Positions 47,701 to 64,000 are shown, counted from the first letter of the stretch. The stretch: DNA of 64,000 bases from Tubulanus polymorphus (GCF_964204645.1 NC_134029.1:23802950-23866949); one strand, 5' to 3'. Numbers and translations are program-made. Notes: generated by a model from the letters alone, not told the origin.

Positions 47701-50700
47701 CATTTTCAGACAGCTATAGCAATGCTGATTGCTTGTTTTGTAGGTAAGATTCGTGCGATATGAGAATAAAAATATAACCGAATGTCGATTCAAAGACAAG
47801 ACATGAGTAAAACTAGTTCGCGAAATTATTTTCTTTTTTTGTATAATATTTCAGTTGCGGTTGAGGCGGCAAATTTCACAACTCAAGATCCCTATGTAAC
47901 TAATGAAGCAACGACGTCAGCGGAAAGCTATCAGAGTTCAACACACGCCACTACATCTGCTACAAACACTACTACAGCTGCAAACACCACTACAGCTGCA
48001 CCAGATACAACTCACGCCACTACATCTGCTACAAACTCTACTACAGCTGCAAACACCACTACAGCTGCACCAGATACAACTCACGCCACTACATCTGCTG
48101 CAAACACTACTGTAGCTGCAAACACCACTACAGCTGCACCAGATACAACTTACGCCACTACGTCTGCTGCAAACACTACTGTAGCTGCAAACACCACTAC
48201 AGCCGCACCAGATACAACTTACGCCACTACATCCGCTACAAACACTACTGTAGCTGCAAACACCACTACAGCTGCACCAGATACAACTCACGCCACTACA
48301 TCTGCTACAAACACTACGGTAGCTGCAAACACCACTACAGCTGCACCAGATACAACTTACGCCACTACACCTGCTACAAACACTACTGTAGCTGCAAACA
48401 CCACTACAGCTGCACCAGATACAACTCACGCTACTTCATCTGCCACAAACACTACGGTTGCACCAACAAGTTCAGTCGCCCCATCAAGTTCAGAAACCCC
48501 AACAAGTTCGGTGGCCCCATCAAGTTCAGTAGCCCCATCAAGTTCCGTCGCCCCAACAAGTTCTGTTGCCCCAACAAGTACAGTAGCCCCAACAAGTTCA
48601 ATCGCCCCAACAAGTTCAGTTGCCCCGACAAGTTCAGTAGTCGCAACAAGTGCGACTTCCTCAACAAGTTCAACTTCCTCATTAACAAGTTCGACTTCCT
48701 CAACAAGTACGGCTGCAACAACAACTGTATCGACGACAGTTCAAAAACCACAACAGACGACCACGGCATCTACGGTGACATCTAAACCTACAGCCAGTAA
48801 AGAAACTGAACGTCTAAGTGGCCAGTCACAAGCACTGGTTAATGTAAAAAATGGCGCAGAATTAGCTACAAAAGTTAACAAGATCATGAGTGAACTCAAC
48901 ATCAGACCTCCATCGGTATGAATACACTTGTATCTATATCCATCTCAATGAGTGTTTTAACGTACGATTTCTTTACGAGACTACAATATAAAATCTAAAC
49001 CACCATCTTTAAAAATTGTGAGCATTTCAAATTTTATTTTAAAGCATTAACGGGGATCAATTATCCGTTTTTAACACGTTTCTTTGCATCATCCACTACT
49101 ATTGTAGAATACTACCACGGATAATGGACTACAGGTTGATACAAATGCTGAGCACTCCTTGCGGGAAAAGGTTCGAAGAAAAAGTTTATTCTTTTCAATA
49201 ATTTAGGACATGAAGGGGCCTTCTTTCAACAGTTTGAAATGATTATGCATGGCTACTTTCAGATCAGATTAGATGCTGTAACAGCCATCGACAATTTTGC
49301 TAAAGTAAAAAAGACTGATCTTAAAATGATAAACAAATTATCTATTTCATTGGGAAAAACGACATCAAAACAAGAGGAACTTTCATCAGCTATAATGGTA
49401 GGTCACACTGTGCTGGTCTAATAGTTTTAGCCTGATCGTTTTAATATCGAAATACAGTGCTAATTCATTCTAAAGAAAAATGAAGCAATACAGTGCTAAT
49501 TCTTTCGAAGGAGAAATGAAGCTTCAACCTTCAGCAACTCAAACCGCGCCTCCAAACTTTCAATTTTACAAACTAAAACCAGACTTTTAGACTTTTATCA
49601 CTCATTCTTGTCAGGGAAAAGGCATGGATGCATCTGACACCTTATATGCAAAAGGAGCTGCGCTTGTGAATTCAGTTCAACAAGTGGAAACTTTAACAAA
49701 CGGTAACGATTTCACTTTAACCTCTTTACTATCAACTTCAACGCATATATCTTACATAAACCAACCATGTTAATATCAGAGAATATAATTGGCCCGCCGA
49801 TTGTCGCACCGCCTTTAAATCACTTTAAATACGACGTTTTTTATCATTGTATATTGTTCTGTCCGTGTTCTGAATGTGAATGTACACTGTATTTTCCAGA
49901 AGTGGCCGCTACACCGGATAATATCATCGGAGCATTGGTTGAAAAACAGAGTCAATCGATTAACAAGAACAGCGTCATCGATCAACAAACAAAAATAGAG
50001 GTACAGAATCATTGGCCACACCGTAGAAAATAAAAGATCCAGTTGCTGAGAGCACAGTGTATATAGATTGCAGTATGAACACGGAAAATAATATCTGTAT
50101 TTGAACATGCGAGATGAAAATAGAATACACAACTATACATATTTTGATTAATATTTACACAGCGATGACGATATTATTCGCGCACTTGTTTATCGTCTGA
50201 GCTGATGATTCATGTTTAATTGTTTTCTGTTCTTTTGAATTGAGATTTTTAATATGGGAAATTCCCTACAAACGAGTATAACATGCTATTCTATCGAGCC
50301 CGGTAACTTCTTCTATTTGGCTTGTAGGCGAAAAACGTGATGGAAAAATCGGAAAATCTAGTGAACAAAATGCAAGATCTTATGCTGTCGAAGATTGAGA
50401 CCGCTACGGAACGAATTGAAATTGTTAAGTCCAATTTTGCTATCACAGTCGCTAAAATGGACTCGACGTCATTGACGAAAAAATCGTCGTTTCCCGCAAA
50501 AGCTGCGACATTAAAAATGCCAAGTGACTTATTACAAACATCATGGAAAGGAAAACTTCATATAAAGGTATCAACTTTAAAATGAAATGAAGATTGATTT
50601 CATTTATTTACGTCAATGTCTCATTTTCCTACTTGATTGTTTAGGTTACATCGTTTACCAAGAACCCGTATCTGTTCGTAGATAACTCCGAACTGGTCAA

Positions 50701-53700
50701 CTCAGCCGTACTGGTAGCTGACGTTAGAGATGAAAAAACTGGACAGCGCCCGCAGCCAGACCTGTTCCGTTCAGATTCTGGGGTTTGTGGCGGCGTGCTT
50801 TCCTCCCAGGGTGACAATTCAAAACCGATAGTAGTACCCGTAAACGGCAGCTTCCCGGCATTAGGCAAATTACACACCTTCACATTCTCCAGTCCGCATC
50901 TGAGTTTTCGCTTCACGTACACGAGAAAATTTCAAGGATCGTTCGACTTGATTGGAAAATATACGACAAACAGCGCGCTAGCGAGTACCGGCCGACTGGT
51001 ACAACCGTCAGAACAGGATTACGACTTCCATCTGGTATCGGTAACTGATCGCATTCAGAACAAGAAAATAACGACCGGGTGGCAGGATATGATAATATCA
51101 TTCAAAGATGATAAAAATCTCGTCATTTTTATTCCATCATCAGTGGTCAGAAAACCCGGTAAACTGCTTATAATAATAAAGGTCAAATTGATTCAAATAG
51201 GTTTGTGTTATACTTTGCTGGCCACTTTATCAATTATAGTTCCACTTTCCCAATAGTCTTGAAAGTTAATCTTTTTTTTACAAAAAGGTCAGTTGCGGAA
51301 ACGCCGGGCCGTACCTCTTGATCCCAGGTATATCATCACTCCAGTTATAATGCAGCTTAGAAATTGGAACAAAAAGACTAATAGTTGGGAAACAGCAGAT
51401 TGGATTCAGGTATAGTCAATTTCTTTTTAATTTGGCTTACGTGATTCGTGATTCAGCCTGATTCATTTGATTCTGTTGTCTTTTAAGTTTCATTTTACAA
51501 CAAAAACAATCAGTAAATAACTTAATGAATTGATTTCTGAAAACTTCCAATGTTCCGATGTAAATAAAAAAATTTATGCCGAACACAAATTGACGAAATG
51601 TTAGTAAGAATTTTTCTAACTCGAACCATAAATTACTGAGAAAGAATGTAAAATGTGGAAATGAAATGGAACCGATGCTGATTCCATGATTTCTAAAAAG
51701 CACTGGTTGAATGGCGGACATTAAGTTGTAGATGCATTTAACTGCAGCTTGTGGGAAAACTAGTAAAACATACACAATAACTACAACAAGAAGAGTTTTA
51801 CTGGCTGAAGATTGATGATGATCTGTTCTCTTCGCTCTCATCTCAGATCTCTTATTGCGTAATACAGCAGTTAACACTGATAATATTACAATCATTACAG
51901 AAGGAAATATATCTTGTAAAAATGTTTTTACAGCACTCAATGATTCTCTAAACCAAACATTTGGATATCTCATTGTCTGATCACATGTTAAATGGTCATA
52001 TGTTTCATTGTATCTGCGATTTTTGTGGAGGTTAACACGATTGCGTATGATTGCTGAATCCAAGTTCATAAAATACGCCCAGAAGATGACAAAACCTACT
52101 GCAAGTTTACGCCGAGTGACGGTGAAATGTTTCATATGAAAGAAAGGAAAACGAATAGAAACAAATCTCTCGATAGCAATCACTATGACTGTGTAGTTTG
52201 ATACAGATATTGCCTGGTTATAAAATAGGTTTGAAAATATACACGAAGGAAACAATCGTCTGGGCAGATAATAGAAATACTTATAGAAATAGTAAAGTGA
52301 TGGACATAGTTTACTGTGTTTAGCGAATGTCAGAAAAGTAGTGCGACATTCTCTATAAAATCCTAGACGAGAAACCAAAAACGTTTTCAAATGTCGTGGA
52401 AATTTCTCTAACTCAAACAGCACGACAAGTTGATCTGAAACCGCCAGAGTTATGAGATAGGGGAACGTGTAACGAACTGACTGATATCTGCGACACTTTA
52501 TCAGTAAAATTATTGTCAGAAAGTTAAGCACACTTCCCGGCGGAAGCAAGAAAACATATCTGAATATTCTGTTATATTTATAAATGAAGTCGGTGAATCT
52601 TCTAAAAGCTATGATATAATCCGGTGTCTTCACAACAGTGCGGTATATTCTACGAGTTGTAGTGGTGATAGTGGTGAAATTATCCATGAAGAGAACAGAA
52701 CAGTTTGATGCGACGATCTGCGTGGAGTAACTGCTTCTCTCACATTGTGTGTTACTGCGGAATCACAGAACAGAATTTCACACTCTATAATCATCTAAAC
52801 ATTTCACACGATGCTGTGTTGAAATTACTACTTGCATATTTACAAAAAAATCAATCTAAAATTGCTGTAGAAGTTACATACGAAAATGTTGCAATTTTTA
52901 GACGCGAATTTATATACATATATATTCATTGCCAACTGTAGTTTTGTTGTAAGTACATCGCAGTCGTCTCTCCTGTCTTTACAAGGATACATAAGTTTCG
53001 AATTCTGAAAGTTGACCAAGCACCAATTTGACTTTCAGAATTTGACTATGTGTCAATCTGCTATCTCCATCTACCTTACTTAGTTACATAATCTGTATTC
53101 ATTCTGAACCATTAAGAATTTCTGTGGCATCTACGGCACCCCGTGATGTTTTTATTGCTTGGTCTGTCTGACATATAGCTTCTGTTTAATCCATCATCCT
53201 CATTCAGCGAGTTATTATATTTTGTTACTTGATTTTCTGGTCATCCCGCCTGATGATGGCTCTTGAGTCGACGGCCGAAACGTTGTGATGTAAGAACCAG
53301 GGACCACAGGAATCCCACCAGGGACCACAAAAAGTGACCACACTAAAGCGGTCACTTTTTACAAAGAAATATAGTTTAAAAGTTTAAAGTTTGGTCACTT
53401 CCACCCGTCGTCAGTCTAGAACCACCCGGAATATCTTAATTAAAAGAAGTTTCAAATGTTGGATTTTTACATTTCTAATAATTTTTCAGATTTTACCGCC
53501 AAACAGTGGTTCAGCTGTGCAGTTTAAGAGTAATTTCTTCGGAACGTTTACGGCCGGAATGTTCGCACCTCCAAATACGATTGATTTTGCGAAGATATTT
53601 CCGGATTTTTTGACGTTGCTGTCGGACAATCCTTACGTACTGATAACAGTGTGCATATCATTGAGTTTGTTTTTATTATTATTGATATGGGCTCGTCGTG

Positions 53701-56700
53701 CTGACCGCAACGATCGACTAATGGTGAGTATCGTTCTTTTCATTCTTATCTTGTTTTTCTTTATTTTGGGAAATCAAGTATCCGAATCCAGATATATTCG
53801 AAACTTAACAAAATTTGTTGAAGAAATACCACTGTATACTCAAGAAATATACCTCCTATTGTACATTTTTCAATTTTGTATATATGACATTCGTGTAATC
53901 TATGATTTACTTATTCAATCAGTGGTTGGCGGCCCCGTTATTGGACAACGAGTCAGTTGATCAATACTCCTATAAAATAACAATTCAAACCTCGTCATTA
54001 ATGGGGGCAGGAAGCACTGCGAACGTTTTCATTATGCTGATCGGAGACAAGAATGCTTGTAGACCACATACTCTTTTTGATGGTTTTCGAGAAGTAAGAT
54101 TCCCAATATTATCCTGTTACATTTTTCTTCGTTAACTTGTATTTGTATTTGTAATAAATCTAAATTTAAATTCCAATAAGTTTATCTTGTCAACTAACGT
54201 TAGATTTTCCATAAATTGTGTGTAGGCTAGATGTAATAAGTGTGGTTAATATTATGTTTCAGAATTTCAAAAGTGGTGCGATGAATACGTTTATATTGAA
54301 AACTCCGGAGGAACTCGGTCACATTCAGTACATATTCATCTGGCATGATAACACCGGAAAATCGCCGGCCTGGTTACTGAGCAACATCACAGTCGAGGAT
54401 ATTCATACTAAAAACTCGTAAATATACCATATTACAGAACCCATTAACCAATTCATCAACGCTGGTCTAATCGCGTTGTAAAATCTTTATGATCCATAAA
54501 AGTCATTGACGCAATAAAGATTGAAATGAAGTTATGACTCTGGTGGTGTCTCCTGTTTCATCCGTTGTGAAATTTATATAACATCATTTGATTTTCAACT
54601 GAAATAATTTTGATTTGGTTCTAGTTATTTCTTCATGTGTGGCAAGTGGCTATCGGAGGAAAGAGACGATAAAAGAACGAACAAACTACTAAGAGTAACC
54701 CATCCGGGAAACTTGGGTCAAGTGCAGAAGATTTTCGGAAAACATTCGCAACATTTTTTGTTCGATTCGCACGTTTGGTTCTCGGTGTTCAAAAGACCAA
54801 ATAAGAGTCGTTTCACGAGGGTTCAGCGCTGGTGCTGTTGTGTAGCCTATCTATTTCTGGTAATGGTGACCAACGCTATGTGGTTTGAAGCCGGTACGAC
54901 TAACACATCGTCAGGGTTGACTATCGGACCATTTAGAATCTCGTTCCGAACTGTTTTCGTGGCGCTGATGTCGAGCGTGATCACTTTACCTCCGTTGATT
55001 CTGCTGATTGAGATTTTTAAGAGACTCAGACGACGGAATTATATCAAAACGTCCCCGGAATTCGATTCCTTGTCATCGAAAGCGACGAAAAAGCGCAAGA
55101 AAACTCTAATGCTGCCCTGGTGGTTCATCTTCATAGCATACGGGCTCGTGATCATCTGTATATTTCTGGGTGCATTTTTCAGTCTTTTCTACAGTCTACA
55201 GTGGGGCAAGCAGAAATCGTGCGACTGGCTGGCGGCGTTATTTTTGTCGTTTGGTGAAAACGTATTTCTCATCGAGCCGTTGAAACTATTGTTTATCGCT
55301 GGTGTGATGACCTGCATCCTGAAATTACCCACGCACGAAGACGACGATGATCTCGACGAAGATTTTTTGAAAGTAGAAACGGCACTTTTACCGAGTAAAA
55401 CTGACGAAATAAATAGTAAGTCTGCAATCTCATACATTGACCAATCATAGAGGTATTAGTTGTACCCACAGTGAGAACGATCTTACTGTACCAAAAACAC
55501 TGATATCAGACATTATAAAGACGAATTTATCGAAAAATACATAATTCTTGGAAAGTTACTTGACAAGTTTAGGGTACTCAATTCCGGGTATCCGAAGAAT
55601 AGGGTATTCAATTTTGGATATCCTTTGTGAGTTATTGGGTTTAGTTGCAACAAATAAGACCGAGATGCATACGAATGGCCGCAACATTTTTCTCGGGTAT
55701 ATTCGGGTATATTCAGGGTTACCGGTAAGGCAGTACCCGAAGTTGAGTAGTACTACCTTGGATGAATGTGCCGAATATTATACTTGAAGAGTTGTTGATG
55801 TTTCGATGAATTCGCCTTAAAGTTCTTGGTAAAATATTGACCACGTTTTTGCACTGATTATCAGAAGTTTGTGTATAAATCCTCAACATTGAATTTTGAA
55901 TTTAAATGAAAAATCATCAACATTAAATTCAGATTTCGCAAATTGAGTCGATTTTTAAAGCCTCCCTAATTCACCGTATGGGACTGAATTATTACTTCAT
56001 GTTGTATAATTACAGTACCGAAGCCGACCGAAATTCCCGATCTACCTGACGACTTGGACAATTGCTACGAGAACGAACGAACGCGAAAACAGCGAGAAAA
56101 ACGGGATAAAGTGTTGTTTCATTCGGCAAGACGAACTGGTTTACAGGCTGTATTTCTGTGCATGGTGATCATTCTGTGCACGAGTAATCGTAGCAGTCAA
56201 TTTTATCATCAGAACTGGGCGATGACGAATGTGATATCGCTTCAATACGAAATAAACGGCATTAAACACACGGTAAGTCTTATCAGAGACACAGCGTACA
56301 GTGTCACCTTTGAAACCAGAAACGGTTTATTTTTGCTATATTCCTAGATAAATATTTATTTTGAATTTTACGTTGGGTTTTTCTATTGTCCGATCTGTGT
56401 CAATATTTGGTTAGTTTTCATTGCAAATTTATAACTGCAGTTGCTTAAATTCGAGAACCGACAGCCCATTTTCGGCGGTTCTGTCAAATAAGACTCTTCG
56501 AAGTTTTAGCGTTGATTTCGCAAATTTACTTCTTGTAGTTAAGCAACTTTGATGATATCTGGAATTGGTTGAATATCAATGTTTTGCCCACAATTTACCC
56601 GACCACGTGGTACAATGGTCAACCGATGTCCGCCATGGACCGGCAGTTTATCAGTAATATGGACGGCTTACGGATCGGACCAGCTAGAATAAGACAAAGT

Positions 56701-59302
56701 CGCGTTGAACACGGTCAGTCCTGAAATTACACATACAACTGCGGTAGTTCTTTGGAGATTCGCAGAGGAGACGTGTTTAACTGGTGTAGAATAAACACAA
56801 CGAGACGGATAGCACTTTATAGGTTAACTAGTTTATTAGACGCACAATGAAAAGCTCGTGATTCTAAATAGACTAGTTAACCTATAAAGTACTAATCGTC
56901 CCGTAGTTCTTCGTGAAGTTCTTTGAGTAATAGTCATTAGTTTAAGACATATTTAATTCGAATAGCTTTCTAAAAAATTCATTATTGTCCATTAGATATT
57001 CCCATACGTATTTGTTTGAAATGGAATTTGAAAAAACAAGCGAATCAAATCATTTTTAACAATCTATTGCAGTAAAATGCGTGCCGCATCTGATATACTC
57101 ATATATACCGAACTGTAGAATGAATTACAACTTGTTCAACAAGGAAACAAATAACTTTAAAATCTGTAAGTAAAAACTACAGAGCATTTTATGAAGCCTA
57201 TGAAGGTTTACTTTGAATGTTGTCCTCGTGAAGATCCCAATAGCAATTATACAAATTATTTGAGGCTTCCTTTTCGTGAAACCCGACTTTGTACTTCGTA
57301 ATTTTCGTTTTTTATTCTATAGTCTGGCGACCCATGAATGGATCACCGGCAGGAAAGACGCCTTTCACATATAGCAACCCGGCTACAAATGAGTTACCCA
57401 TATCGGGCAAATTCTCCACCTACGATGGAGGAGGATACGTAGCCGAACTCGGTCAGAGTGTCGAATTGGGTCTTTTAGTTGTAAATCAATTGAAACAAAC
57501 CAACTGGTTAGATCAGTACACCAGAGCTCTCTTCGTCGAAGCTACAATTTACAACGCGAATACGAACTTATTTTCTTCGTTAAAATTGATGGTTGAGTTA
57601 CCTGCCGATTCTGGTATTTTTCCCAGTATCTCGAGCTGGACATTTCGCCCATACCCGTACGTCAATGTGTGGGACCTAGTACTACTAGTACTTCAGATAA
57701 TCTGGATTATAGTCGTTATAATAGTAACGATTATGCAAATACGCGATATGGTTGTGATGCGTAAGACGTATTTTCGCGACGCTTGGAATTATGTGCAATG
57801 GATGAATATTCTGCTATCTTTCACCAGTTCGGTTCTATATGTTCTGCGTACTGTTAAAACAGTGAAAACCGTTGAGGCCACGCTTACTAATACCGGTATG
57901 TAGCGGTACAAAGGAACAAAACCTTTCTTTTTCAAAACTTTGTTTTGGATTTTGTAACCATTTATTTAGTACTTTTGTAGAGGAACCGGGTTGACGAGTA
58001 GTACTATATAGGTTAACTATTTCATATGACGCACGAGCTTTCGCTTATATCAGCTTCATCAGGTGAATGAGTGAAATGTAGTGAAAGCTCGTGCGTCAAT
58101 TAAAATAGTTAACCTACAGCACTACAAATTTAGCACTAAGGGATTCGTGTTTTGGTAGTCGAATCTCTCTTCTTGCGAAATAAAAAAACAATTTGTATTC
58201 TTTTTTTTCAGATAAATTCGTGTCATTTGATGAGATCATGTTGTATGATGATCTGTTCACGTATATGCTGGCGGTTGTCTGTTTTATCTCAATACTACAG
58301 CTTCTGCAACCGCTTTCTTATAACTATTTCTTCGCGCTATTCAAAGTTACGATCAAGCGATCATTCCGCACGATCATCTCGGCGTTCGCTTTCATGATGA
58401 TCTTTATCGTAATGATCGGTCAGGTGATGGTGATAACAGTCGGGTATTCGGCACCGGGGGTTCGTACGATCCCGTTGGCGTATTGGAATCTATTCCGCCT
58501 AATGCTCGGGCATATCAAATACGCCGAGATGATGGTCGACGTGTCCGATGTTTTCCGCGCTTTCACCTTCTCCGCGTCGCAGCTAATTTTGAACCTGGTG
58601 TTTTTCAACTTGTGTATCTCGGTGTATATATCAATGTACGATGCGGTGCGACGTTCGACCGAGGATCCCGATGGCTACGACCGAGTAATGAACGAACATT
58701 TCTGGTCACGGTTGCATATGTTATGGGCCGCGATCACGAACAAAGATCCGTCCATGTGGTCGTATGATGTCCAGAGAACTCTACACGAAGAGCACGTTCC
58801 CGGACATCACGGTAATACCAGAAATACAGCCGCGTGAAGTCTTACAATTATGACACTGATTAAAATATGAAATATGATTTTGACAGATGATACCATGGCT
58901 TTGATGCCAGAGCAGCGGTATGTCCACGAAAGTCCGAATATTTCGGCCTTTGAAGTCGTCAGGCTGACCAACATGGTTTGTATGAAATCTACATTGAAAT
59001 CTTAACGCTTCCCAAGCGTTTGAAAGTTCTTAAACACATGTTTATGTTTATGTTGTTACGTTTAGATCGACGGAACTTTATCTCAGTTCATTAAGACGTA
59101 CAGATCGGATATGGAAAATGTAAAGAACGATGCCAAACAGGCTCGACGAATGTCTGATCTTGTGAAGGAACAACTTAAACATACACAGGACGAATTGGCT
59201 AAAACCACGCAACACGTATCAACATTGAAAGCAGTAGTGAAATCCGCTGTGAATAATACAGATCTACTCGCACACCGGGAACTCTGGAATACAATCTGGT
59301 AA
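44780..59302 (+). CDS. Polycystin-1-like (PKD1L2/L3-type) receptor-channel: signal peptide, mucin stalk, GAIN/GPS remnant, PLAT, multi-TM PKD channel, coiled coil
   Basis: Signal peptide MKKIKMW|TAIAMLIACFV|VAVEA from exons 44780-44800, 47710-47743 and 47855-; APPNTIDF...NPYVL...WARRADRND; PLAT YKITIQT...AGSTANV...IWHDNTGKSPAWLL; HVWFSVFKRPNKSRFTRVQR; TYDGGGY...NWLDQYTRALFVE; YFRDAWN. Confidence 0.9.
47508..47545 (+). ncRNA. Degenerate hammerhead-like core in foldback element 47486-47589
   Basis: CUGAAGA-U-GAGGUU(loop)AACCUC-GAA-ACCGUU; stem I poor. Confidence 0.4.
47944..48650 (+). repeat. Coding mucin-like tandem repeats: 69-bp (23 aa) x ~7.5, then 18-bp (VAPTSS) units
   Basis: Unit starts at 47944, 48013, 48082, 48151, 48220, 48289, 48358 and 48427; two N-x-T sequons per full unit. 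Confidence 0.92.
51437..52687 (-). CDS. Intronless rhodopsin-class GPCR (FMRFamide-receptor-like / invertebrate expanded family), nested antisense in PKD intron
   Basis: 416 aa, seven hydrophobic segments; GSVLN (TM1), LAVSD (TM2), IAIERF (DRY equivalent), INFFIY (TM7). Confidence 0.88.
   Translation of the reverse strand: MDNFTTITTTTRRIYRTVVKTPDYIIAFRRFTDFIYKYNRIFRYVFLLPPGSVLNFLTIILLIKCRRYQSVRYTFPYLITLAVSDQLVVLFELEKFPRHLKTFLVSRLGFYRECRTTFLTFAKHSKLCPSLYYFYKYFYYLPRRLFPSCIFSNLFYNQAISVSNYTVIVIAIERFVSIRFPFFHMKHFTVTRRKLAVGFVIFWAYFMNLDSAIIRNRVNLHKNRRYNETYDHLTCDQTMRYPNVWFRESLSAVKTFLQDIFPSVMIVILSVLTAVLRNKRSEMRAKRTDHHQSSASKTLLVVVIVYVLLVFPQAAVKCIYNLMSAIQPVLFRNHGISIGSISFPHFTFFLSNLWFELEKFLLTFRQFVFGINFFIYIGTLEVFRNQFIKLFTDCFCCKMKLKRQQNQMNQAESRIT
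53242..53290 (+). ncRNA. Minimal hammerhead ribozyme (Penelope-like)
   Basis: CGC-CUGAUGA-U-GGC...GCC-GAA-ACGU-U-GUG; cleavage-site base is U. Confidence 0.6.
58032..58065 (-). ncRNA. Minimal hammerhead ribozyme within foldback element ~57999-58126
   Basis: Minus strand CAC-CUGAUGA-A-GCU(GAUAUA)AGC-GAA-AGCU-C-GUG; a related element lacking the core lies at 56812-56892. Confidence 0.7.
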
Positions 59303-59379
59303 TTTATTTCAGGTCTTTTAAAAGCGCTCGAGTATCTTTTATCGGTCTAGTTTGGGTCATTGTTTAGATTTTCTGTCAG

Positions 59380-62332
59380 TCTCAGATATGAAGAAGATGA
59401 TGGTATAGCTTGTCAGATGCGGAGTATGTCGGATGAGATGTGCGGTGATGGTGCTATTGCAGTAACCAGAGAAGATGTCATTACACCGCAAACACCTATC
59501 ATTTCTCGTGTATACGGCCCTGCTCGCAGATTCAGTTTGAAGGTTTATCACGCGGCTAAAGAGGTACGCATAGACAAATACGAATAATTTACCAAAATTT
59601 TCATAACAAGAAATGATAGCCAAAATGTATCGTCGTATTCCTGATCTATTTATGATCCGTAAAGAAGATGCCTTTTGTAGTAACATTGCCACTTAGAAAT
59701 CAAAACCTGCCCTAGCAAATCCGTAGTGGAAACCAGAGTCCCGGGTTCAAATTTATGGTTAGAACAAAGTTATACAACGTCAATCTCATTGAAAAGCATT
59801 CGAAGTTTTTGGACGACGGAGCTTGGAAATTCTAGTCTGCCGATCTGGACAAGCCATGCGCATTTTTCTATTCGAATTATTTTGCCTCGTATTTCAACAG
59901 GAGGTATTGTACCTAGCGATACCTGTATCCAAAACACCAATATCCGATCATGAAGAATTTGTTATAATGGTGAAAAATACGAATGAAATTGACCACTGGC
60001 AAGAAATGCCATCGACATTGGAGAAATTTGAGCTAGCACCTGAGGATCAAGAGTTGTGTGATGTAAGATTTTCGGGATTTTGATTTTACTCGCTACTTTA
60101 TCTGCTGGAGTTCGTATGTGTTATTTGTTATTTGATGAATGCTTATAAAGATAAATGGACATTTTCTAGGACGAATTTTGCGTGCTAGCTGCCTTGAATA
60201 ACCTGCCCCTTTTAGCCGTACCAGTTGCTATTTGGAAACGTGAACTATTCATGGCGGAACCTTCAGGAAGCGTGTTCGATTCATCCGTAAATAAAGGAGT
60301 CAAAATCTCAGTACCCTCAAATTGTTTTGATTGTCCGACACCGATCACGATGCATGTATGTACTTCTCCTAGAGAATATAGATATTGTATTATTGAATAT
60401 TCTTTTCTTACTATTAAATATTTGCCTTGTAGGTGATTCCAGTCGATAGAACTATCAATCGTCTCACCCAGGAGAATATATGTATTTCACCAACTGTTAT
60501 TGTTCAAATCACAACTACATGTAACCGAGAAGTCCAATTCATTTTACCTTTCTTTCGTCCAGCAAGTGATACAGGTATATTTCTAATCTAACTGCTTATC
60601 ACTTGAATCTTATTATATACTTTTCATCTATAAACATGTATATATGTGTATATCCAGGAACCAACTTTCGGTATCCATTTTTACTCACGCGAAAAGAATG
60701 TGGTGAATGGATCGATGAGGTTTCTACCGCTGGAGTGACCGTCATCGCTGATTCGGTTACTATCAATCTGAAAGTGCCAAGTTCGTACGTAAACCGCCAA
60801 ATCTAAACGATATTGAATATGAAGATATATATTCGGTTTTTTAAAGGTTTCGTTACTAACAGAGGTTTCCATTACTGTTACAGCGTGACGTTTAGTTTCT
60901 TTGTTAAATGTCGTGATGGCGGCTCATGGGTATGTACGGAAATGCAGTACTCGTTCTGGGAATCTGCTTTTTTGGCTCGGGTAGGATTCAATTTTGCTAG
61001 GACGTATCATCGGCTCTATTCTATCGCCTTCGTTGTAAAGTCAAGGTTTCAGTTAGTTAGTTATCTGATGTTTTTAACGTATTGTCTCGCACTGATGATT
61101 CACCTTTCATACACAATTTGCTTCAATGCTGAGTTTTTATAGGAAAAGAAAAACATTCTAAAAAATGTTTATTTCATTTTAGTTCCGTGATGATAGAAAA
61201 GGACACCGTTTAGGTAAATGCACCATGCAGTGGCCGGTTGCACAGTTTTAGCTTAGATTTTAAGCCTGTCTAAGCCAAACTTTGTTTTATACCCAATCTA
61301 ACAACTTATGTCGAGTAGTCTAAGATCTGAGACACGTTTTGGACTTAGGTCACGACCGTACAACTGGACACAGTTTTCGAAAACGTCTAAATTAATACAG
61401 ATATGAGATTATATGTAAACGTTAAGGTATGAAATGATACAGTGAAATGTTTCAGATCCGGTAACGGCAGCATTTCTGGCGCATATCGGAAGTGATATTG
61501 GCTCATCGTGGCGTGAGATGGGTGTTTACCTTCAAGTCTCTCAAACGTTGCTGAACACGTTGAAAAGAAATAGAACGATGAACAATATGCAAAAAGCAAA
61601 TGCTGTCTTATCGAAGTGGCTCGGTACACAAGAGATGTCATCTGATAAAGTAAGCTCTGATGAATCGATTTCATACCATATACACAATACATTAGAAAAT
61701 CAAAGTAGAAATTTTTTTTCTAAAATGTATTTGTATTTATTTGCAGTTGACTAAATTGAGACAGAGTATGGAACTATGTCGAAGATATGACGTCATCGAA
61801 ACTATTGACCAATACTCGAGGGAATTCAAGAAAGTGACGATGAAAATGACCACTGGTTAGTGCCATCTTTGGGGTCTAAAATAAGGGAGTTATACGTCTC
61901 AATTATGCGCTATCACATTTTTCAGAATCCAATCTAACGAAATCAATAAATGCCGTCATAAAAAGTAAAAGGGTCACAGATAATTGGAGATTGCTAGCCG
62001 AAGGGCTAAACATTTCTGAAACATTCGTCAAATCTCTGGATGACGCTGTTCCGCCTATGGCCACGACAGAGAAATGCTTCGCCGTGTTGATAGAATGGAA
62101 AAATAATGACCCGACAGCTAATATCCATCAGTTACAACATCGTTTATCAAACATGGACTGTAAAACGATCAGCAGTAAGCATTCGCAGTAATATTTAATG
62201 AGGGTGAATCCACCACACAATATGATAAAAGCTATAAACTCATCAATCATTTATTACTGTGCTATTAAATTCATACGATGAAATGGAAATATTCATTCTA
62301 CTTTTGCAGACACTATGAACCGATTCACCTGA
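59380..62332 (+). CDS. ZU5-like x2 plus tandem death-domain module (11 phase-consistent exons), probably the C-terminus of the PKD1-like protein
   Basis: GVKISVPSNCFDCPTPITMHV...ISPTVIV...VQFILP (ZU5-like); IGSDIGSSWREMGVYLQVS...AVLSKW...RYDVIE and DNWRLLAEGLNISE...CFAVLIEWK (death domains); stop TGA at 62330, AATAAA ~62416. Confidence 0.72.
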
Positions 62333-63455
62333 TCAGAAGTCCATTCAGAGTTGTGATCAACCGCGCGTGATTTATTCCGTTAATTTGTATATTCAACATA
62401 TCTTTAGTTAGTTAAAATAAATATCTTTTCAAACGAATTCTGTACAAGTTCAATATTCTTAGTTGTTGGCAGTTTGGCAACCTAAACACCGGACAAAACG
62501 GAGCAGATGTTAGAAAATTGCCAAGGCCGGCCGGGGTCTAGCGGATACGACCTCGGTGAGACCTGTTCGGATGCGGCCGCCGTTGGAAGCCGTTCTGGGC
62601 TCGGTGTTAGATATTTTAGAAGAAATCAACGCTTAACGATGCAATTTCCGGGAGTATGCGTGTCAAATAGGCTGGGACTGGTTTTTAGACTGGTCTACCT
62701 TTCAACCCCCTGGGCGCTTACTCGAATTGTTGAGTTTGCCCCCGGGTTAAAGGTACCGGTCAAAACCGGCCCCGGGTTTTTATCTCTCCTCCGCCCGTTC
62801 ACAAGTCTGGTAGATCTCAAGACTGTCCACTAGTTTCTGATTTTGACTAGTTTCTAAGTTGTGCACCGAGTTCCAGGTCAGTCACCCCTCATTATTGATA
62901 TTGACTGCAAGTCGCGGCCAGGGATGATGCCAGGCAAGCAATCTACTCACCGACCCCCAACCACCAGCAAAATCCGTCCTACCACCGACTCGACGCATGG
63001 TACCCTAGCCCTGTTCGTAAAAAGAAAAAATAAATTCTGTTTTTATTTTCGAAAGTTTTGCGGTATTAACGCCCCGCAAAATAATCGTGTCCGTGAATAT
63101 TGTTACGCTAGCTGTATTCGCATTCCGCGTCTGAATCCGCGTTTTTATCTGCAATAAGTAAAACATGGTTTTGGAATTTACGGACCGGACTATGAACCGG
63201 ACTGATCAAACATATCCTATGTAAATAGCAACAACATGATGACATTTGATTCGTGAACACACGTATCCCGCCACAACTACAGTTATTTAGACAAAACGGG
63301 TAATACAGCATGCTAGATGGCTGGCTCAATTTTAATAGTTAATAGAACTGCTTCTTGGGGTGCAAATCGCAAGTGTCATTTCCACCAGAAACTTTTTTAA
63401 GTCCCAACCAGTCCATCCACGGTTTCGCCCCCAAACAAAGTCCTTAATCTGTCAG

Positions 63456-63562
63456 TGGTTTAGTTTCACGATCGGATATTTTCACAAACCACATATAACC
63501 ACATTGGTATTAGCCCATCCGATTATAAAAAGCTTGCCACCAACGATTAGATAGCCTAACTA
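63456..63562 (-). repeat. Dispersed repeat family R copy
   Basis: Matches 5436-5520 and 6276-6405. Confidence 0.75.
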
Positions 63563-63577
63563 TTTCGTCCCTATGCC

Positions 63578-63735
63578 CTGAATACGTCAGTCGTTGTTAC
63601 CGGTTCCCTGTTGTTTGTGAAACGACGGCTAGTAGGTACTGGGGCGAAATAGTCTAGTACCTAGCCGTCGTTCTACAAACAACCCGCAGGGAACCCGTAG
63701 CTTGTAGGGAACCCATAACAACGACCGGTATTCAG
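63578..63735. repeat. Imperfect inverted repeat
   Basis: CTGAATAC...GTCGTTGTTA...GGTTCCCTG...AACGACGGCTAG pairs with CTAGCCGTCGTT...CAGGGAACC...TAACAACGAC...GTATTCAG. Confidence 0.6.
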
Positions 63736-64000
63736 ACTAACTCCTTTCCTGACACTGACAGGTGCTCTATTGAAAAACAGTATAATGGAAAGTGCAGCTT
63801 TTAACTTGACTTGTAAAGCTAGTTTGTTCAGTTGAACAGATTGTAGCTGAGTTGAAAAGTACAGAACACCGATGAATCCACAATTGCATTTGCGTGTTTG
63901 AATAACTAGTTCAGCATAGTTAAAAATCTTTGGCTTCCTGCTGTTCATTTCAAGTCACGAAGAGTCAAGAAAAGATTGATCTATGATATGAATAGTCACT

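What the first reader, a model, noticed from the sequence alone, without database searches (positions are those of the whole stretch)
58888..62332. Polycystin channel apparently fused to a cytoplasmic ZU5-like + tandem death-domain module
Seen: after the last TM exon, phase-consistent exons give a coiled coil (59066-59298). The donor ATCTG|GTAATT can then join TTTTCTGTCAG|T at 59380 (TG+T = Cys) into 11 further phase-consistent exons encoding ZU5-like repeats and two death domains. Only ~80 nt separate the parts, with no AATAAA and little room for a promoter. Known: ZU5 + death-domain tails characterise UNC5, PIDD, ankyrins and DTHD1; characterised PKD1-family tails are short coiled coils. Inference: a mucin-GAIN-PLAT-channel receptor wired directly to a death-fold signalling platform (immune, apoptotic or cytoskeletal). 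I do not know this architecture from described polycystins. This is the strongest candidate novel system in the window.
Basis: partly seen in the sequence, partly recalled or inferred. Interest (0 to 1): 0.85.

Follow-up and report, generated by a model that had tools for sequence, protein, structure and literature searches.

The report
Polycystin carrying ZU5 and death domains
This polycystin-1-like membrane receptor gene is predicted to run on, as one protein, into two ZU5-like and two death domains, a layout shared by uncharacterised brachiopod and mollusc database proteins, which likely links a sensory channel complex directly to death-domain signalling.

Summary
A 31-exon model (47722-62332, all GT-AG) is open for 2377 aa: mucin stalk, GAIN-like region, PLAT, polycystin channel, coiled coil, two ZU5-like units, two death domains. 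Spliced contigs of run X4 show tail junctions directly. The best support is homology: Lingula XP_013384714 and three Haliotis proteins carry a homologous tail behind the channel, and mussels and scallops carry shorter versions. All fall in one clade (SH-aLRT 100) that has lost the GPS self-cleavage motif and mostly has a convertase-type site instead. A profile of the relatives' tails hits ankyrin-2 ZU5-ZU5 (E 6e-7). There is no room for UPA and no HFS autocleavage motif. Against: one scallop locus is split at this point by RefSeq, both folds failed, and function is untested. Seven paper searches found no description. The scan reported the same layout before on other DNA (e1-8672202, octopus and abalone). 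Verdict: new variant of PKD1-like polycystins; likely a receptor with a built-in death-domain scaffold.

The parts
47722..48915 (+). Exons 1-2 (47722-47743, 47855-48915): hydrophobic leader and Ser/Thr-rich mucin-like stalk. The true first exon may lie further upstream.
   Evidence: model; S+T 51% of residues 21-330; an AG acceptor at 47708-47709, just before the ATG, suggests an earlier exon.
49108..51409 (+). Exons 3-9: GAIN-like ectodomain
   Evidence: Pfam GAIN E 0.017 on 50328-50567 (below cutoff); BLASTP to clade members starts at model residue 419-480.
51296..51307 (+). RKRR, a predicted furin-type convertase site about 50 residues before the degenerate GPS
   Evidence: RxK/RR or RRLL-type site in 18 of 22 SNFFG-type rows against 0 of 36 HL(T/S)-type rows. 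Rows are related, not independent; motif definitions are recalled.
53529..53549 (+). SNFFGTF in place of the GPS C-x-HL(T/S)F self-cleavage motif
   Evidence: motif list; shared by all ZU5-tailed relatives checked.
53490..54417 (+). Exons 10-12: GPS-like stretch, TM1, PLAT
   Evidence: Pfam PLAT E 1.1e-8.
54625..58811 (+). Exons 13-18 (54625-55415, 56016-56272, 56539-56713, 57073-57165, 57323-57895, 58212-58811): TM segments, TOP/polycystin domain and channel
   Evidence: Pfam Polycystin_dom 1.1e-22, PKD_channel 1.4e-13; X4 record 26 pieces; exon 57073-57165 found from the 269-nt gap in that record.
58887..58975 (+). Exon 19, linker. Holds ACCATGG (ATG 58896), a possible separate start under the rival reading.
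   Evidence: Phase-consistent; junction 58811-58887 not seen in RNA contigs.
59066..59298 (+). Exon 20, predicted coiled coil
   Evidence: X4 record 27 aligns at 59065-59297 and leaves the genome at both ends; heptad count.
59380..60245 (+). ZU5-like unit a (exons 59380-59563, 59901-60062, first part of 60170-60355); its first half is degenerate; ends approximate
   Evidence: Profile of relatives' tails scores the window's beta region 28.2 bits against at most 4.3 for 500 shuffles; that profile aligns to ankyrin-2 across the ZU5a/ZU5b boundary.
60246..60929 (+). ZU5-like unit b (rest of 60170-60355, 60433-60574, 60658-60784, 60884-60929); ends approximate
   Evidence: Atlas lead ZU5 0.78 for exon 60170-60355 (lead only); joints seen in X4.
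61183..61855 (+). Linker exon 61183-61213 and death domain 1 (61456-61649, 61747-61855)
   Evidence: Pfam Death E 0.002; joints 60928/61182, 61211/61454, 61649/61747 in X4.
61926..62332 (+). Death domain 2 (61926-62174) and last exon 62310-62332 with stop; AATAAA at 62416
   Evidence: Pfam Death E 2.3e-4; FADD DD E 0.002; X4 record 28 runs to 62160; the last junction was not seen.
58812..58864 (+). Possible short-isoform end: read-through of the 58812 donor gives TGA at 58835-58837, with ATTAAA at 58859
   Evidence: Sequence only; no RNA evidence either way.

Best explanation
One gene is predicted to encode a PKD1-like 11-TM polycystin whose cytoplasmic tail continues through a coiled coil into two ZU5-like units and two death domains, and this tail likely works as a built-in scaffold that recruits death-domain adaptor proteins when the receptor-channel complex is stimulated. 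Shown: the open spliced frame, the domain matches, the same layout in relatives, and the loss of the GPS and HFS self-cleavage motifs. Inferred: the ectodomain is cut by a convertase at RKRR instead of by itself; the protein pairs with a PKD2-like channel through the coiled coil; the ZU5 pair stays uncut and docks on, or masks, the death domains much as in UNC5; unmasked death domains bind FADD/RAIDD/RIPK-type partners to give NF-kB-like or apoptotic output. About 0.88 for the fusion, about 0.5 for death-domain signalling given the fusion.
For: Open 2377-aa model, 31 exons, all GT-AG. X4 spliced contigs: 5 tail joints listed and a sixth evident from adjacent pieces of record 28. Record 27 (477 nt) equals 24+233+184+36 of the model, and the 59201-59800 bin needs 279-281 bases at that contig's depth, against 282 for the model, 98 if the contig left the region, 318 if unspliced and 276 for the stop-forming AG at 59385. 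The same arithmetic reproduces four other bins to within 0.05 and exposed a missed 93-nt exon. Of 81 stored relatives with an alignable channel (157 stored), P0010 (Lingula) and P0040 (Haliotis) match the tail at E 1e-12 and 3e-7, and P0113 (Mytilus) at 0.005. One BLASTP alignment to P0040 spans model residues 733-2361 across every disputed junction. PLAT + channel + Death at E<0.01 in Lingula, three Haliotis, four Mytilus species and Mizuhopecten. The tail profile hits ankyrin-2 4d8o (E 6e-7), ankyrin-3, and the death domains of PIDD, RIPK1 and CRADD (E about 1e-3 to 9e-3). All 10 rows labelled as ZU5-tailed lie in one 20-row clade, SH-aLRT 100.
Against: Junctions 58811-58887, 60062-60170, 60355-60433 and 62174-62310 were not displayed, and 59298-59380 and 58975-59066 are inferred, not read. 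One Mizuhopecten locus is fused in GenBank (OWF36259) but split by RefSeq into a channel gene and a 410-413 aa tail gene starting in the coiled-coil region. 10 of the 20 clade rows show no ZU5 tail, and the label needs 4 changes. Three scallop proteins keep the ZU5-like pair but have no death domain, so the death domains are dispensable in some lineages. The bivalve ZU5 assignment rests on weak profile scores (E 0.01-0.6) and on reading the alignment. No Pfam ZU5 hit in any window exon or relative. The closest ZU5 pair is ankyrin's, a cytoskeletal adaptor. No binding partner was tested.
Confidence: 0.55

Rival explanations
1. The fusion is real but the tail is an ankyrin-like tether that fixes the polycystin complex to the membrane cytoskeleton or ciliary base for mechanosensing; the death domains are structural, as in ankyrin.
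For: The best solved match of the beta region is the ankyrin-2/3 ZU5 tandem; Atlas neighbours include ankyrin fragments at 0.93; the ZU5-like pair is kept while death-domain number varies from 0 to 2; there is no HFS/SFS motif in the window tail.
Against: The first half of ZU5a is degenerate, and the DARGG spectrin-binding motif (recalled, not from a call) is absent in 15 of 15 tails, with a looser D.RGG in 1 of 15. There is no room for UPA. The death domains score better against PIDD/RIPK1/CRADD/FADD than against the ankyrin-3 DD (E 0.5).
Confidence: 0.28
2. Two tightly linked genes, or one gene giving mostly separate products: a short-tailed polycystin ending at TGA 58835-58837 and a soluble coil-ZU5-ZU5-DD-DD adaptor starting at ATG 58896, with fusion only as a minor read-through form.
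For: In-frame stop and ATTAAA (58859) just past the 58812 donor, and ACCATGG at 58893-58899; junction 58811-58887 not seen; RefSeq splits one scallop locus at the equivalent place.
Against: Only 75 nt lie between the exons; the phase is right; annotated fused proteins exist in Lingula, Haliotis, Mytilus and four scallop genera, including a 92%-identical Mizuhopecten copy that RefSeq itself fuses. Those models are predictions whose RNA support I could not see.
Confidence: 0.12
3. The tail is released by proteolysis and signals away from the membrane, as PIDD fragments or the cleaved polycystin-1 C-tail do.
For: ZU5 domains of PIDD, NLRP1 and CARD8 self-cleave (PMC3210808, passages); PC1 C-tail fragments are released and move to the nucleus (PMC9672506, passages).
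Against: HFS/SFS is absent from the window tail; 3 of 15 tails contain such a triplet somewhere, none shared between them. At the end of ZU5a the window reads NNLP where ankyrin reads RDFP. Release by another protease is not excluded.
Confidence: 0.05

Closest known systems
PKD1-like polycystins (PKD1, PKD1L1-3, PKDREJ; molluscan TRPP1-like)
   Same: Large ectodomain, GAIN-like region, TM1, PLAT, TOP and channel domain, coiled coil in the tail.
   Different: Tail of about 640 aa with ZU5-like pair and two death domains, against a short tail (under 200 aa in PC1, PMC9672506; 'short intracellular C-terminal tail', PMC5318412). GPS motif replaced by SNFFG, with a convertase-type site upstream. 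No REJ or PKD repeats detected in the clade members scanned.
Ankyrin-2/-3 ZU5-ZU5-UPA-DD tandem (PDB 4d8o, 6m3p)
   Same: Tandem non-cleaving ZU5 pair followed by a death domain; best solved-structure match.
   Different: No UPA, two death domains, no ankyrin repeats, fused to the membrane protein itself; recalled spectrin-binding motif absent.
UNC5 netrin receptors (ZU5-UPA-DD tail)
   Same: Transmembrane receptor with a cytoplasmic ZU5 plus death-domain module (PMC3210808, passages).
   Different: UNC5 is single-pass with Ig/TSP ectodomain (recalled) and one ZU5 plus UPA; this is a multi-pass channel subunit with two ZU5-like units and two death domains.
PIDD1
   Same: Two ZU5 domains and a death domain; PIDD DD is among the best death-domain matches (E 8e-4).
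   Different: PIDD is soluble, has LRRs and UPA and self-cleaves at HFS; the motif is absent here.
Uncharacterised database proteins XP_013384714 (Lingula), XP_071110902 and XP_046351489 (Haliotis), XP_076071050 (Mytilus), XP_021360857 (Mizuhopecten)
   Same: Same core, same degenerate GPS where checked, homologous tail.
   Different: Different N-terminal modules (fn3/CUB, EGF, lectin) and one or two death domains; names given by the sources do not mention the tail.

Membership tests
PKD1-like polycystin | PLAT domain after TM1 | tested here: met
   Pfam PLAT E 1.1e-8
PKD1-like polycystin | TOP/polycystin domain and PKD channel domain | tested here: met
   E 1.1e-22 and 1.4e-13; alignment over residues 5-956 of the partial model to PKD1L2-like proteins
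PKD1-like polycystin | Eleven TM segments | tested here: inconclusive
   Crude hydropathy scan gave 9 hydrophobic stretches in the core, three long enough for two helices; no dedicated predictor run
PKD1-like polycystin | GAIN domain with cleavable GPS (HL-T/S) | tested here: not met
   GAIN-like region present (weak, E 0.017) but motif reads SNFFGTF; no Pfam GPS hit in clade members scanned. Filed as a variant: the family descriptions read call GPS typical, and non-cleaved members are recalled
PKD1-like polycystin | Short cytoplasmic tail | tested here: not met
   About 636 aa after the last TM motif; this is the novelty
PKD1-like polycystin | Forms a channel complex with a PKD2-like subunit | not testable with these tools
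   No partner gene or assay available
ZU5-UPA-DD supramodule (ankyrin, UNC5, PIDD) | ZU5 domain(s) | tested here: met
   Indirect: relatives' profile hits ankyrin-2 at E 6e-7 and the window tail at 45.9 bits against at most 5.4 for 500 shuffles; Atlas ZU5 0.93 for the Haliotis region; Pfam ZU5 itself not hit
ZU5-UPA-DD supramodule (ankyrin, UNC5, PIDD) | UPA domain between ZU5 and DD | tested here: not met
   ZU5b runs into DD1 through a linker of about 10-20 aa
ZU5-UPA-DD supramodule (ankyrin, UNC5, PIDD) | C-terminal death domain | tested here: met
   Two, Pfam E 0.002 and 2.3e-4 per exon; above cutoff in whole relatives
Autoproteolytic ZU5/FIIND (PIDD, NLRP1, CARD8) | HFS or SFS cleavage motif at the end of ZU5 | tested here: not met
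   None in the window tail; motif from PMC3210808 passages
Ankyrin-type spectrin tether | Spectrin binding through the first ZU5 | tested here: inconclusive
   Recalled DARGG motif absent; binding not testable here

The most novel reading that the evidence does not exclude
A lophotrochozoan class of polycystin 'death receptors': a PKD1-type channel subunit that traded GPS self-cleavage for convertase processing and carries its own ZU5-gated death-domain platform, so that a chemical or mechanical cue at an epithelial or ciliary surface nucleates a death-fold signalling complex directly on a TRP-family channel.
Probability: 0.35. Interest if true: 0.8.

Novelty: new variant of a known kind. Interest (0 to 1): 0.58.

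Why it matters
Polycystin-1-type proteins are orphan receptors whose output is still argued over, and described members have short tails. A natural, long-conserved fusion to a ZU5/death-domain module points to a testable effector arm, and hints that unfused polycystins elsewhere may recruit ZU5-DD proteins (ankyrins, PIDD- or UNC5-like) in trans. The joint loss of the GPS motif and gain of a convertase-type site gives a natural experiment on whether ectodomain cleavage, rather than the self-cleavage chemistry, is what matters. Abalone, mussel and scallop homologues are experimentally reachable.

Tried and rejected
No whole genome is held, so paralogues and free-standing tail genes in this animal could not be checked. 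No listed run is on record as RNA; X4 is treated as RNA only because its contigs skip GT-AG introns. A closer view of the X4 joints was not obtained, which leaves the 58811-58887 junction open; depth arithmetic does not decide it (residual 6.24 fits spliced and unspliced forms). The rise in contig depth towards the 3' end was not used as evidence, since contig depth cannot rank parts of a gene. AlphaFold on the Lingula tail alone (pLDDT 37.5) and on a three-sequence alignment (36.8) gave no verdict, so no fold search was run. Word-based protein searches were weak: 0 hits among 173 candidates, 8 among 1142, 2 among 4792, the first two limited to 2000 aa. Exon 60170-60355 found nothing useful in the PDB. 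Direct BLASTP of ZU5a against ZU5b was not significant (E 2.2), and segment-wise pairwise scores of the ZU5 units against single relatives were weak or absent. Alignments mixing short window exons with whole tails misplaced the exons and were not used. My first model missed exon 57073-57165 and misplaced the 55415 donor; the tree and searches used that 1576-aa version. No complex was predicted, as no partner is known.

Full report
The observation. The window is intron-rich animal DNA and no assembly is held. Building the gene by hand and by script gives 31 exons from 47722 to 62332, every intron GT-AG, one open frame of 2377 residues. Per-exon Pfam scans give PLAT (1.1e-8), Polycystin_dom (1.1e-22), PKD_channel (1.4e-13), a weak GAIN (0.017) and two Death matches (0.002, 2.3e-4, each just under cutoff); none of the five beta-region exons scanned hits ZU5. 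The second death exon matches FADD's death domain at E 0.002.

Transcript evidence. Four runs of one study hold the stretch; none is on record as RNA. Run X4 has contigs that skip introns. Record 28 joins 60571/60655, 60784/60884, 60928/61182, 61211/61454 and 61649/61747, and its pieces continue across 61854/61925 to 62160. Record 26 joins channel exons; the 269-nt gap between two of its listed pieces equals 1+175+93 and revealed an exon (57073-57165) that I had missed. Record 27 (477 nt) aligns at 59065-59297 and leaves the genome at the predicted donor with 221 nt to go. The table was cut, so its other pieces were not shown. The model accounts for its length exactly if it ends at 59936, where an X1 contig also ends, and the mean depth in bin 59201-59800 requires 279-281 bases at this contig's depth: the model gives 282 (281 with the listed end), a contig leaving the region 98, an unspliced one 318, and the nearest other acceptor, which makes a stop, 276. 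The same sum reproduces four other bins to within 0.05; the remaining seven of twelve bins hold unlisted contigs and leave positive residuals. So the coil-to-ZU5 splice is inferred with good support but was not read. The junction from the last TM exon (58811-58887) is not shown, and reading through that donor gives a stop at 58835 with ATTAAA at 58859, so a short isoform is possible.

Relatives. An unindexed search with the largest conserved exon found 2214 proteins and listed 150; with 8 that made 157 stored. Of 81 with an alignable channel, the two with the longest tails (about 600 aa) match the window's tail: P0010, Lingula XP_013384714 (E 1e-12), and P0040, Haliotis XP_071110902 (E 3e-7); P0113 from Mytilus matches the death domain only (0.005). 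Pfam finds PLAT, channel and Death together in Lingula, three Haliotis species, four Mytilus species and Mizuhopecten. A single BLASTP alignment to P0040 covers model residues 733-2361. Three scallop proteins have a tail that aligns with the ZU5-like pair but ends before any death domain (weak scores). Against this, one Mizuhopecten locus is fused in GenBank and split in RefSeq, the tail gene starting in the coil; a 92%-identical copy is fused in RefSeq. All of these are gene predictions whose RNA support I could not inspect. Only the best 150 of 2214 hits were seen, so the range beyond brachiopods and molluscs is open.

What the tail is. A profile of three relatives' tails hits ankyrin-2 (4d8o, E 6e-7) and ankyrin-3 across the boundary of their two ZU5 domains, and the death domains of PIDD, RIPK1 and CRADD. 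It scores the window's tail at 45.9 bits against at most 5.4 for 500 shuffles, and the beta region alone at 28.2 against 4.3. The Atlas puts the Haliotis beta region next to ZU5 clusters at 0.93, with the caveat of a low recognition value. The second ZU5-like unit runs almost straight into the first death domain, leaving no room for UPA, and the HFS/SFS self-cleavage motif of PIDD, NLRP1 and CARD8 (PMC3210808, passages) is absent. Two structure predictions failed, so the fold is assigned by sequence only.

The clade. A tree of 74 cores (73 of 168 stored proteins with a hit, chosen for covering the core, plus the window; quick search, midpoint root) places the window gene in a 20-row clade at SH-aLRT 100, beside Lingula proteins (93), with a mollusc sister group. 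All 10 rows I labelled ZU5-tailed are inside it, but 10 rows lack the tail in their listed model and the label needs four changes; one gain with later losses or truncated models is the simplest reading, not a tested one. The clade has SNFFG in place of the GPS motif, and 18 of 22 such rows have an RxK/RR or RRLL-type site shortly upstream, against 0 of 36 rows with the canonical motif (related rows; motif definitions recalled). The animal is therefore probably a lophotrochozoan (inference).

How it likely works. PKD1-like proteins pair with PKD2-like channels (PMC5318412, passages), in PC1 through a tail coiled coil (PMC9672506, passages). I infer that this protein does the same, is cut at RKRR by a convertase, and uses the uncut ZU5 pair as a dock that gates two death domains, which recruit death-fold adaptors. 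UNC5 is the model for a receptor with a ZU5/death tail. The main rival is an ankyrin-like cytoskeletal tether, favoured by the ankyrin match and by the loss of death domains in scallops, and disfavoured by the missing UPA, the degenerate first ZU5 half and the closer death-domain matches to signalling adaptors. Separate genes and proteolytic release are less likely. None of the functional steps was tested.

Novelty. Seven full-text searches aimed at this layout listed no paper that describes it; three others were for background. I saw passages only of PMC3482391, PMC8260672, PMC12749960, PMC3210808, PMC9672506, PMC5318412, PMC13402157 and bioRxiv 10.64898/2026.05.15.723513, and passages plus a term search of two supplementary files for PMC12980990. 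The abalone TRP survey lists eight TRPP1-like genes, and neither its figure legend nor its supplements mention ZU5 or death domains; the cephalopod survey has neither term. Subscription papers, figures and bioRxiv supplements were not visible. Verdict: real, a new variant of PKD1-like polycystins, present but unremarked in public annotations; interest 0.58.

Noticed in passing
window 51437-52762, minus strand: Intronless rhodopsin-family GPCR frame (441 aa stop to stop; Pfam 7tm_1 E 3.7e-13) nested in the 2-kb intron between the RKRR exon and the degenerate GPS exon; high contig depth in X1-X3 suggests a multicopy family.
   Followed up: partly
window 51296-51307 and 53529-53549: Clade-wide swap of GPS self-cleavage motif for SNFFG plus an upstream RxK/RR or RRLL site: 18 of 22 rows against 0 of 36 canonical rows (related rows, not independent).
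   Followed up: partly
window 56797-56907 and 57993-58116: Two related palindromic elements (arms 37-41 nt) in introns of the channel part, MITE-like.
   Followed up: no
window 63401-64000: Very high-copy repeat (contig depth over 37,000 in X1).
   Followed up: no
P0004, P0005, P0006 (scallops): Clade members whose tail ends after the ZU5-like pair with no death domain; Mytilus trossulus isoform X2 (P0178) also lacks the death domain, so alternative tail ends may be regulated.
   Followed up: partly
P0144, P0174, P0175, P0177 (Mizuhopecten): The same locus is annotated as one fused gene by GenBank and as two genes by RefSeq.
   Followed up: partly
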